From Enterobacteria phage IME10, in sequence record NC_019501.1: a stretch of 39,646 nt of DNA, one strand, 5' to 3'. The notes under the pieces are model-generated. The model saw only the letters and a program-made list of their open reading frames with translations, was not told where the DNA came from and ran no database searches. The position numbers and the translations under genes are program-made. Below are positions 25,664 through 26,452 of the stretch, one piece after another (position 1 is the stretch's first letter; every line of letters starts with the position of its first letter).

Positions 25664-25670
25664 TAACCAG

Positions 25671-25694
25671 AGGGAGCTTCGGCTCCCTTTTTTA
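25671..25694 (+). terminator. Rho-independent terminator immediately after the coat gene
   Basis: GGGAGC-TTCG-GCTCCC hairpin followed by TTTTTTAT. Confidence 0.65.
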
Positions 25695-25707
25695 TCTGGA
25701 GACAAAC

Positions 25708-25974
25708 ATGACACACATGATCTTTCGTCATGGCGACATGAAGAAGTGGAAAGGCGTTGGATACGACTTTGAAATCGTGAAAGCCGAAGAGCTTCAGGAA
25801 TATCTGGATGCTGGCTGGTTTGCACATCCCGATGACCTTCTGAAGGATGTTGCAGAGCCAGAGCCAGAGCCAGAGCCAGAGCCAGAGCCAGAGCCAGAGC
25901 CAGAAGAAAAACAGCGTAAAAAGCCTGGTCGAAAACCTAAGGCGGCAGCAGATGAACCTGACAACGAAGGGTGA
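25708..25974 (+). CDS. Small hypothetical protein with an (EP)8 repeat and a basic C-terminus
   Basis: Track ORF 25660..25974 trimmed to the ATG at 25708 (GGAGA ribosome-binding site). Contains an in-frame (GAGCCA)8 repeat; 3' end overlaps the gp4 start by 23 nt. Confidence 0.4.
25855..25902. repeat. Hexanucleotide simple-sequence repeat (GAGCCA)8
   Basis: Eight perfect tandem copies, encoding (EP)8 in the small ORF. Confidence 0.95.
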
Positions 25975-26452
25975 TTTAGTTCTTGCGGCATTACGTAAGC
26001 TCGGTGTGGCATCAAATGCCACGTTAACCGATGTCGAACCGCAGTCTATGGAAGACGGCGTCAACGACCTTGAAATGATGATGGCTGAATGGCTTGGCGG
26101 TGATGTGTCACCTGGTATCAACGTTGGCTACATTTTCGCTGATGCAGATGTCGCTCCGGATCCGGGCGATGAGCACGGTTTATCAAATAACGCTATCAAT
26201 GCTGTCATTTTCAACCTTGCCTGCCGCATTGCACCGGATTATGCGCTGGAAGCGTCTGCAAAACTTATAACCACTGCCAGATACGGGAAAGAGCGACTCG
26301 TCAAACTGTCTGCAATGGACAGAGCAAAAGCTGCTAAATGTAAGTCCGGTTATCCAAACCGTATGCCTGTTGGTAGCGGTAATCAGTTGGCGAAGTGGAA
26401 CGGTTGGAATTACTTCCACCGAAAGGAACCTTGCGATAACGGGAGCGAATAA
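25952..26452 (+). CDS. Head completion / portal-associated protein (P22 gp4-like)
   Basis: Track ORF 25847..26452 trimmed to the ATG at 25952. [33 protein letters not shown]... matches gp4 as remembered. Confidence 0.85.

What the first reader, a model, noticed from the sequence alone, without database searches (positions are those of the whole stretch)
25664..25980. Terminator-gated small ORF between coat and gp4 carrying an in-frame (GAGCCA)8 repeat
A strong intrinsic terminator directly follows the coat gene. Just after it, a GGAGA ribosome-binding site drives a small ORF whose centre is eight perfect GAGCCA copies encoding (EP)8, followed by a basic tail ([11 protein letters not shown]). 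Hexanucleotide repeats can expand or contract by slippage without breaking frame, giving a length-variable linker. The 3' end of the ORF overlaps the gp4 start. The terminator may set coat-versus-downstream stoichiometry, and the repeat protein may be a variable virion or regulatory component.
Basis: seen in the sequence. Interest (0 to 1): 0.5.

Follow-up and report, generated by a model that had tools for sequence, protein, structure and literature searches.

The report
P22 orf69-family gene with variable repeat
The small gene between the coat and gp4 genes of this P22-like E. coli phage is a real, conserved, uncharacterised late gene (relative of phage P22 orf69) whose middle is a slippage-prone six-base repeat that varies from 1 to 29 copies between near-identical prophages; it is tidy but fairly ordinary biology.

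Summary
Coat ends at 25663. A strong hairpin with a T6 run follows (25669-25693), then GGAGA, then an 88-codon ORF (25708-25974). The ORF holds eight perfect GAGCCA units (25855-25902) and overlaps the gp4 start (25952) by 23 nt.

The ORF is a genuine gene. It belongs to phrog_1175 and is a homolog of phage P22 orf69. pN/pS is 0.095 in frame, against 1.1-2.0 off frame. It was intact in 79 of 80 related viral contigs. Relatives down to about 30% identity keep it between coat and gp4.

Its architecture is a confidently folded 48-residue N-domain, a disordered acidic X-Pro spacer, and a basic AT-hook-like tail whose codons carry the gp4 Shine-Dalgarno sequence.

The repeat is a hypermutable in-frame VNTR. 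It ranges from 1 to 29 copies in complete E. coli genomes. Eight of 13 locus pairs with identical 1.8-kb flanks differ in copy number.

The post-coat hairpin is conserved and already annotated in P22, L and Sf6, with its role unknown. I found no evidence for a virion role. Function remains unknown. My best guess, at low confidence, is a nucleic-acid-binding accessory factor for packaging or head completion, with repeat length close to neutral.

The parts
24368..25663 (+). P22-type coat (major capsid) gene, upstream neighbour
   Evidence: Pfam P22_CoatProtein E 5.8e-164
25669..25693 (+). Post-coat intrinsic-terminator-like hairpin: core stem GGGAGC/GCTCCC at 25672-25687, UUCG loop, T6 at 25688-25693
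   Evidence: Scan gives 9 pairs. RNA fold -21.1 kcal/mol, z -3.6. Almost invariant in 80 close relatives. Positionally conserved, with different stem sequences, in distant relatives and in P22, L and Sf6, where it is annotated.
25698..25702 (+). Shine-Dalgarno GGAGA of the small ORF, 5 nt before the ATG
   Evidence: Read directly. Conserved in relatives. In the MFE fold it is partly paired with the coat stop-codon region.
25708..25974 (+). Small late gene, 88 aa, P22 orf69 / phrog_1175 family
   Evidence: phrog_1175 E 8.8e-37. BLASTP to P22 orf69 E 8e-9. 386 homologs. Intact in 79 of 80 viral loci. Synteny coat -> ORF -> gp4 is kept in relatives of 30-40% identity.
25708..25851 (+). Folded N-terminal domain (residues 1-48): beta-hairpin plus two helices, invariant G36-W37 and P41
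   Evidence: AF2 pLDDT about 90 over residues 1-40. pN/pS 0.095 in frame against 2.05 and 1.06 off frame. Invariant columns from alignments A1 and A2.
25855..25902 (+). (GAGCCA)x8 in-frame VNTR encoding the (EP)8 spacer
   Evidence: TRF score 104, 100% matches. n = 1 to 29 in relatives. 8 of 13 locus pairs with identical flanks differ in copy number. AF2 predicts disorder.
25909..25941 (+). Basic AT-hook-like motif [11 protein letters not shown] (residues 68-78)
   Evidence: A basic K/R-G-R-(K/P) motif is kept in distant homologs, some with canonical RGRP. Pfam AT_hook gives no hit for this protein and a sub-threshold hit for P0135.
25939..25945 (+). gp4 Shine-Dalgarno AAGGCGG, embedded in codons K78-A79 of the small ORF, 6 nt before the gp4 ATG
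   Evidence: Read directly. The same AAGGCGG stands before the gp4 start in P22, L and Sf6.
25952..26452 (+). gp4 (head-tail adaptor / tail accessory factor); its start overlaps the small ORF by 23 nt
   Evidence: Pfam P22_Tail-4 E 1.3e-58; phrog_637 head-tail adaptor Ad3

Best explanation
Shown: this is a genuine protein-coding late gene. It is the E. coli-phage counterpart of phage P22 orf69 (phrog_1175), and phage L Orf186 is the same protein with an inserted WDGH domain. It is a fixed syntenic member of the P22-like head module, placed between the coat gene and gp4.

The protein has three parts. The first is a small folded N-terminal domain under strong purifying selection. The second is a disordered acidic X-Pro spacer. 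The third is a C-terminal basic AT-hook-like motif.

In this E. coli lineage the spacer is encoded by a pure (GAGCCA)n array that gains and loses units, presumably by replication slippage. It does so much faster than point mutations accumulate. Because the unit is 6 nt, the frame and the downstream gp4 start are never disturbed.

The last 36 nt of the gene double as the translation-initiation region of gp4 (SD AAGGCGG inside codons K78-A79, then a 23-nt overlap). gp4 synthesis is therefore probably coupled to translation of this ORF.

Inferred: spacer length is only loosely constrained, so the copy-number variation is mostly neutral. The protein is an accessory, non-virion factor that acts late, at DNA packaging or head completion. 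It would tether whatever the N-domain binds to nucleic acid, or to an acidic surface, bound by the basic tail.

The post-coat hairpin is a conserved intra-operon terminator or RNA-stabilising element. It probably lowers expression of everything downstream of the very abundant coat protein.
For: Coding and conserved:
- phrog_1175 E 8.8e-37.
- 386 homologs with invariant flanks around a variable repeat.
- pN/pS 0.095 in frame against 2.05 and 1.06 off frame, similar to gp4 at 0.066.
- 79 of 80 IMG/VR loci intact.
- Homology to P22 orf69, 34% identity, E 8e-9.

Synteny: homologs of 30-45% identity all lie between P22_CoatProtein and P22_Tail-4, abutting or overlapping the gp4 start.

Architecture:
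- AF2 gives pLDDT about 90 for residues 1-40 and 50-60 for the remainder.
- Distant homologs keep the order N-domain, Pro/acid-rich linker, K/R-G-R-P/K tail.
- Linkers elsewhere use other codons (GAG CCT) or are (KP)n. The constraint is therefore on the protein, not on the DNA repeat.

Hypermutability:
- Sequence-verified n = 1, 24 and 29, with other values inferred from match lengths.
- n = 4 to 15 in viral contigs.
- 8 of 13 pairs with 0 differences in 1800 bp of flank differ by up to 4 units.

gp4 initiation region inside the tail.

Hairpin. It is annotated in P22, L and Sf6, and published discussion leaves its role open.
Against: No experiment on any family member was found, and every relative is annotated hypothetical or unknown.

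The functional part is inference only:
- The window protein has KPGRKP, not the RGRP AT-hook core, and Pfam AT_hook does not hit it.
- Part of the tail's conservation is explained by the embedded gp4 Shine-Dalgarno sequence and by the overlap with gp4 codons, rather than by protein function.
- Neutrality of length variation is assumed, not tested. Very long pure arrays (24 and 29 units) could reflect selection.
- Whether the product is absent from virions is unknown. The phage L virion mass-spectrometry table was not available.
Confidence: 0.55

Rival explanations
1. Adaptive tunable tether or contingency locus. The rigid (EP)n rod works as a ruler between the N-domain and the basic tail. Rapid copy-number change is selected because different lengths suit different hosts or genome and capsid variants. 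One version of this is a packaging chaperone analogous to lambda gpFI.
For: Copy number changes faster than flanking point mutations. Arrays are very pure: 546 of 612 units are GAGCCA, and arrays reach 29 perfect units. X-Pro spacers recur in distant homologs with other codons, including (KP)n. The gene sits where lambda has FI, between the major capsid and head-tail adaptor genes (own knowledge; gpFI role from PMC13595911).
Against: Linker length runs from about 7 residues in P22 orf69 to 58 or more residues, with no visible compensating change. That pattern looks like tolerance rather than tuning. There is no ON/OFF switching, because the unit is 6 nt. No fold match to gpFI or to anything else in the PDB was found. 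No phenotype data exist.
Confidence: 0.15
2. The ORF matters mainly as a translational leader. Its job is to bring ribosomes past the terminator hairpin to the weakly placed gp4 start, and the peptide itself has little function.
For: The gp4 SD AAGGCGG and ATG lie inside the ORF, and this overlap or abutment is conserved in all relatives.
Against: A leader would not need a 48-residue domain with pN/pS of 0.095 and invariant G-W and P residues across homologs of 30% identity. Nor would it maintain a basic motif using different codons. Relatives with an inserted 100-residue WDGH domain keep both ends.
Confidence: 0.1
3. A virion or decoration component whose exposed, length-variable repeat changes particle properties.
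For: It is encoded inside the virion-assembly cluster and co-expressed with structural genes.
Against: The recognised P22 virion proteins (gp1, 4, 5, 7, 9, 10, 14, 16, 20, 26) do not include orf69 (list quoted in PMC8022706). The 2.7 A Sf6 tail-machine paper does not mention Sf6 gp6, the gene in the same slot, which is a positional analogue only. The weak phrog_2322 'connector' hit (E 0.008) covers the low-complexity part of the protein.
Confidence: 0.05
4. The repeat is a non-coding DNA or RNA element that happens to lie in an open frame.
For: All three forward frames, and one reverse frame, are open through the array.
Against: Variant units are E/D-P/S/Q/T/L dipeptides that always keep the frame. 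The flanks show codon-position-specific conservation only in the EP frame. Distant homologs have Pro-rich linkers with no DNA repeat.
Confidence: 0.01

Closest known systems
Phage P22 orf69 (NP_059631) and its relatives (phrog_1175)
   Same: Homologous N-domain and basic tail (34% identity, E 8e-9). Same slot between gene 5 and gene 4, and it overlaps the gene 4 start. It is preceded by an annotated stem-loop after the coat gene.
   Different: P22 has a 7-residue non-repetitive linker (PVEADDV). The window gene has a 16-residue (EP)8 linker encoded by a hypervariable hexamer array. Function is unknown for both.
Phage L / ST64T Orf186, epsilon34 gene 6 (phrog_3769), and the E. coli allele in L002
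   Same: Same slot, same N-domain, same basic tail. The E. coli allele even carries the same (EP)[14 protein letters not shown] end.
   Different: These proteins carry a roughly 100-residue WDGH domain (PF25311, E 1.5e-39) inserted between the N-domain and the linker. The window protein lacks it.
Sf6 gene 6 / HK620 HkbT (phrog_3251)
   Same: A small ORF after an annotated 't coat' terminator. It has a C-terminal SKRGRKA motif, contains the AAGGCGG SD, and overlaps the gp4-homolog start.
   Different: N-domain homology was not detectable (hhalign probability 2%). It has no X-Pro linker. It is a positional analogue, not a demonstrated homolog.
Lambda gpFI, DNA-packaging chaperone
   Same: A small non-virion protein encoded between the major capsid gene and the head-tail adaptor gene. 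It has two functional ends joined by a flexible region and bridges the capsid and the terminase-DNA complex (PMC13595911; gene order from own knowledge).
   Different: No sequence or fold similarity was found. No activity data exist. The resemblance is one of position and general logic only.
TonB proline-rich rod and trypanosome procyclin (EP/KP dipeptide repeats)
   Same: (EP)n sequence. Weak composition-driven hits to TonB models and to Trypan_PARP. One homolog has (KP)n. Such X-Pro repeats are known to form extended polyproline-II spacers (own knowledge).
   Different: Scores are far below the family cut-offs (21 bits against 100 for Trypan_PARP; 15.7 against 265 for TonB). There is no signal peptide or membrane anchor, and the context is unrelated. 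The likeness is compositional, not homology.
AT-hook (PF02178)
   Same: A short basic G-R-containing motif flanked by K, R and P. Distant homologs carry canonical RRGRP(P/R)K.
   Different: The window protein reads KKPGRKPK and lacks the GRP core. Pfam AT_hook gives no hit here and only a sub-threshold 14.0 bits against 17.4 for P0135.

Membership tests
P22 orf69 / phrog_1175 small late protein | Sequence homology over the N-domain and the tail | tested here: met
   phrog_1175 E 8.8e-37, profile columns 1-72 of 72. BLASTP to P22 orf69 E 8e-9.
P22 orf69 / phrog_1175 small late protein | Position between the P22-type coat gene and gp4, with its 3' end at or over the gp4 start | tested here: met
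   Window. Relatives.
Intrinsic (Rho-independent) terminator | GC-rich hairpin immediately followed by a U-tract | tested here: met
   9-pair stem and T6. -21.1 kcal/mol, z -3.6.
Intrinsic (Rho-independent) terminator | Actual termination or attenuation of late transcripts, with and without gp23 antitermination | not testable with these tools
   Needs Term-seq, Northern blots or reporter assays. The literature calls the role unknown.
AT-hook (PF02178) | R-G-R-P core flanked by basic residues, with a Pfam score above gathering | tested here: not met
   The window protein has P-G-R-K-P and gets no AT_hook hit at E<=10. P0135 scores 14.0 bits against a cut-off of 17.4.
Lambda gpFI packaging chaperone family | Sequence or fold similarity to gpFI (C-domain PDB 2LSM) | tested here: not met
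Lambda gpFI packaging chaperone family | Binds the major capsid protein and stimulates packaging | not testable with these tools
   Requires biochemistry or genetics.
Phase-variable contingency locus | Hypermutable simple-sequence tract | tested here: met
   8 of 13 pairs with identical flanks differ in copy number. The range is 1 to 29.
Phase-variable contingency locus | Tract changes switch expression on or off (frame or promoter spacing) | tested here: not met
   The unit is 6 nt. Every allele examined keeps the frame and the gp4 start.
WDGH domain proteins (PF25311) | Presence of the WDGH domain | tested here: not met
   No hit in the window protein. The domain is present in the allelic L002 / Orf186 form.
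TonB / procyclin EP-repeat proteins | Family-level profile score | tested here: not met
   Trypan_PARP 21.1 bits against a cut-off of 100. TonB models 15-16 bits against 265-315.
Repeated module of GIY-YIG/NUMOD3 homing-endonuclease DNA-binding regions | Shared beta-alpha motif V-x3-EL-x2-YL-x2-GW | tested here: inconclusive
   phmmer hit to P0141, E 4.7e-5, 4 stretches. hhalign probability 95.5% but over only 19 columns. P0141 contains GIY-YIG and NUMOD3. DNA binding by this module has not been shown.

The most novel reading that the evidence does not exclude
The P22 orf69 family would be the podovirus counterpart of a gpFI-type packaging or head-completion chaperone. The N-domain docks on a capsid, portal or gp4 surface and the basic tail holds DNA. 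In the E. coli lineage the VNTR-encoded rigid (EP)n rod would act as a fast-evolving ruler that retunes this tether. That would make it a phage-encoded contingency locus that changes protein geometry rather than switching expression on and off.
Probability: 0.1. Interest if true: 0.65.

Novelty: new member of a known kind. Interest (0 to 1): 0.3.

Why it matters
P22 is one of the best-studied assembly systems, yet orf69 and its relatives sit in the middle of the head gene cluster with no assigned function. They are conserved in position across very divergent P22-like phages.

This analysis gives the family a defined architecture: a folded N-domain, an X-Pro spacer, and a basic tail that doubles as the gp4 initiation region. 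It shows strong purifying selection on the N-domain. It also documents a natural allelic series of 1 to 29 spacer units plus a WDGH-insertion allele. Together these make a simple genetic test of function straightforward.

In practice, the array is a highly discriminating VNTR marker for typing otherwise identical P22-like prophages. It also misleads automated annotation, because the intact 29-unit allele is labelled a pseudogene.

If the protein proves to be a packaging or head-completion accessory, it would add a missing component to the P22 assembly pathway. If not, it is an ordinary small accessory gene with a slippery linker.

Tried and rejected
1. Lambda gpFI homology. There was no fold or sequence match. 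I could not read the gpFI structure paper. The idea is kept only as a positional analogy.

2. Canonical AT-hook membership. Pfam AT_hook does not hit the window protein.

3. Defence or anti-defence role. There were no PADLOC hits for either allele.

5. My initial belief that P22 lacks the gene. This came from the phage L paper's wording about orf186. It was wrong: P22 has orf69 in the slot.

6. Sf6 gp6 as a homolog. N-domain homology was not detected, so it is treated as a positional analogue.

7. A frameshift or read-through fusion of the N-domain to gp4. The gp4 frame is open through the repeat as (SQ)n from 25844. I rejected the idea because there is no slippery site for a +1 shift, and the frame relationship between the ORF and gp4 differs among relatives (overlap, abutment or in-frame stop).

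8. Literature searches. Searches for WDGH, orf69, orf186, Sf6 gp6 / HkbT and the Casjens & Thuman-Commike 2011 review gave no functional data, or the papers were not held. The phage L virion proteomics supplement was not held.

9. The alignment-based locus search failed because no stretch was conserved enough. I used the single protein instead.

10. My pN/pS value for the coat fragment is out of register and should be ignored.

Full report
**Context.** The window is a P22-like (Lederbergvirus) phage or prophage of E. coli. Its closest cultured relative over the queried 25600-26050 stretch is phage APC_JM3.2, at 98% identity. Around the finding the gene order is scaffold (23457-24368), coat (24368-25663), the small ORF, gp4 (25952-26452), then gp10 (26453-27871). 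All four flanking genes have strong Pfam matches.

**Observation.**
- The coat stop codon is at 25661-25663.
- The hairpin GGGAGC-UUCG-GCUCCC lies at 25672-25687, with T6 at 25688-25693. It is the strongest terminator-like site in 22-30 kb. As RNA it folds at -21.1 kcal/mol, z = -3.6 against shuffles.
- GGAGA at 25698-25702 lies 5 nt before the ATG at 25708.
- The ORF runs to the TGA at 25972-25974 and encodes 88 aa.
- Eight perfect GAGCCA units occupy 25855-25902. This is the best tandem repeat in the window, TRF score 104.
- The gp4 ATG at 25952 lies 23 nt inside the ORF.

**Is it a gene?** Yes, on four lines of evidence.
- The product matches phrog_1175 (unknown function) at E 8.8e-37. It has 386 database homologs in which the 49 N-terminal and 23 C-terminal residues are almost invariant and only the dipeptide region varies.
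- Among 80 IMG/VR loci, 79 have an intact ORF. One (L054) has a W14 stop codon.
- Nucleotide diversity in codons 1-49 gives pN/pS = 0.095 in the annotated frame. The other two frames give 2.05 and 1.06. gp4 gives 0.066.
- An exhaustive HMMER search found divergent relatives of 30-45% identity. In every case where neighbours could be identified, the gene lies between a P22_CoatProtein gene and a P22_Tail-4 gene, overlapping or abutting the latter.

**Named relatives.** Phage P22 itself has orf69 in this slot: 69 aa, 34% identity, E 8e-9. It also overlaps the gene 4 start and follows an annotated stem-loop. About 100 cultured phage records carry orf69 relatives, and all are labelled hypothetical.

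Phage L and ST64T Orf186 and epsilon34 gene 6 are the same protein with a WDGH domain (PF25311) inserted after the N-domain. An E. coli allele (L002) combines that insertion with the very same (EP)[14 protein letters not shown] end.

Sf6 gene 6 occupies the slot after an annotated 't coat' terminator and has a KRGRKA tail. Its N-domain is not detectably related. The phage L genome paper states that the function of orf186 is unknown.

**Architecture.** AlphaFold2, run with a 19-sequence alignment, predicts a confident N-terminal domain. pLDDT is about 90 for residues 1-40. The domain has a beta-hairpin (2-14 and 17-25), a helix (26-34) and a second helix (41-48). The rest scores 50-60, which indicates disorder. 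G36, W37 and P41 are invariant across the family.

Its strand-helix motif (V-x3-EL-x2-YL-x2-GW) resembles a module repeated five times in a GIY-YIG/NUMOD3 nuclease. The phmmer E-value is 4.7e-5. hhalign gives 95.5% probability, but over only 19 columns. This is a hint of nucleic-acid association, not proof.

The linker is acidic and proline-rich throughout the family. It is built differently in different lineages: GAG CCT units, non-repetitive acidic stretches, even (KP)n, and only 7 residues in P22.

The tail is a basic G-R motif. Some distant homologs have canonical RRGRP. The window protein reads KKPGRKPK and does not score as a Pfam AT-hook.

**The tail also serves gp4.** Codons K78-A79 (AAG GCG G, 25939-25945) form an AAGGCGG Shine-Dalgarno sequence 6 nt before the gp4 ATG. 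The same heptamer precedes the gp4 start in P22, L and Sf6. The final residues (DEPDNEG) overlap the conserved gp4 N-terminus (MNLTTKGD). Part of the C-terminal conservation therefore reflects the gp4 initiation region. Translation of gp4 is probably coupled to this ORF. That last point is inferred.

**The repeat.** 217 of 5,426 complete E. coli genomes match this stretch, and 173 of them match at least 80% of it. In an evenly spaced sample of the hits, match length ranges from 409 to 577 bp. The steps are 6 bp, apart from 1-nt differences. For the one such case I sequenced (L095, 546 bp), a T5 instead of T6 run in the terminator accounts for the odd nucleotide.

I checked three extremes by sequence: n = 1 (74 aa), n = 24 and n = 29 (130 aa). 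All are perfect GAGCCA arrays with the ORF intact. PGAP labels the 29-unit allele a pseudogene, which appears to be an annotation artefact.

In 79 loci, 546 of 612 units are GAGCCA. The remainder are single-base variants that encode E/D followed by P/S/Q/T/L.

Of 13 locus pairs with zero differences across 1,800 bp of flanking sequence, 8 differ in copy number, by up to 4 units. The array therefore mutates much faster than point substitution, as expected for replication slippage. It never changes the frame.

Whether the length differences matter is unknown. The very wide tolerated range, and the short non-repetitive linker in P22, favour loose constraint.

**The hairpin.** It is almost invariant among close relatives. 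A GC-rich hairpin, usually with a T-run, follows the coat stop codon in every distant relative examined, and the stem sequences differ.

It is annotated as a terminator or stem-loop in Sf6, L and P22. The P22 record notes similar stem-loops in HK97 and lambda. The phage L paper says the roles of such intra-operon terminators are unknown. It suggests partial termination, or blocking of non-antiterminated transcripts.

All downstream virion genes depend on the single late promoter. The element can therefore only attenuate transcription, or act as a 3' stabiliser for the scaffold-coat message. This is inferred and was not tested here.

**Function.** No experimental information exists for any family member that I could find. 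There are no PADLOC hits. The Sf6 tail-machine structure paper does not mention gp6. The recognised P22 virion proteins listed in the L paper do not include orf69. The L proteomics table itself was not available.

My best, low-confidence reading is a late, non-virion accessory protein. It would link a partner bound by the N-domain to nucleic acid, or to an acidic surface, bound by the basic tail, and it would act around packaging or head completion. The positional parallel with lambda gpFI is attractive. Sequence and fold comparison do not support it.

**Verdict.** The feature is a real, well-conserved but uncharacterised P22 orf69-family gene, and in this E. coli lineage it has acquired a hypervariable in-frame VNTR linker.

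It is a new, nicely documented member of a known kind, not a new kind of system. Interest is modest at 0.3. It would rise only if linker length proved to be functional, or if the protein proved to be a missing packaging or head-completion factor.

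Noticed in passing
L002 1608-2219 (E. coli SJC33 prophage); L093 1501-2061 (phage L Orf186): An alternative allele sits in the same coat-gp4 slot. It has the same N-domain and the same (EP)n-basic tail, but with a roughly 100-residue WDGH domain (PF25311) inserted between them. The WDGH domain alone is widespread as small ORFs in Listeria, Bacillus, Streptococcus, Lactococcus and Klebsiella phages. I found no literature on it.
   Followed up: partly
window 25844-25951 (+, gp4 frame) and 25459-26121 (-): The repeat keeps other frames open. 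The gp4 frame reads (SQ)n, with an in-frame ATG at 25847 that would add 35 residues to gp4. The minus strand gives a 220-aa (WL)n ORF. Both look like by-products of the repeat. The ATG at 25847 has no spaced SD, and relatives annotate gp4 at 166 aa.
   Followed up: partly
window 25655-25702: In the RNA minimum-free-energy fold, the lower part of the terminator stem pairs the coat stop-codon region (ACUGCGUGAUAA) with UUAUCUGGAG. This partly sequesters the small ORF's GGAG Shine-Dalgarno sequence. It could couple the small ORF's initiation to ribosomes terminating on the coat gene.
   Followed up: no
L094 409-801 (E. coli ECONIH6, NZ_CP026199): The 29-unit allele is annotated by PGAP as an incomplete pseudogene ('missing C-terminus'). 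The ORF is in fact intact at 130 aa. This is an annotation artefact caused by the long repeat.
   Followed up: yes
L054 3001-3258 (IMGVR_UViG_2684622552_000004): This is the only one of 80 related viral contigs with a disrupted copy, through TGG to TAG at codon 14. The repeat (7 units) and the gp4 start are unchanged.
   Followed up: yes
P0017 (E. coli, 93 aa): One homolog carries a 13-residue tandem duplication ([13 protein letters not shown] twice) at the end of the N-domain. This is a second kind of in-frame length change in this gene.
   Followed up: no
L087 341-592 (metagenome contig): A distant homolog has a (KP)n linker (PKPKPKPKPEPKPKPK) instead of (EP)n. It is the basic counterpart seen next to (EP)n in TonB. 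This suggests the X-Pro rod, rather than its charge, is the conserved feature.
   Followed up: no
window 9699-9793: Two clusters of the 11-mer TTGTCCAACGG (about three copies each, 100% identical) are followed by an AT-rich stretch. They lie inside ORF 9313-10203, immediately upstream of a DnaB-like helicase gene (10178-11629). This is probably the lambdoid-type replication origin (iterons) within the initiator gene. The ORF itself has no Pfam hit.
   Followed up: partly
window 6113-6273: A patch of imperfect short tandem repeats (GCTTCT-like hexamers and 15-18-mers) lies inside a 322-aa minus-strand ORF (5773-6741) that has no Pfam hit.
   Followed up: no
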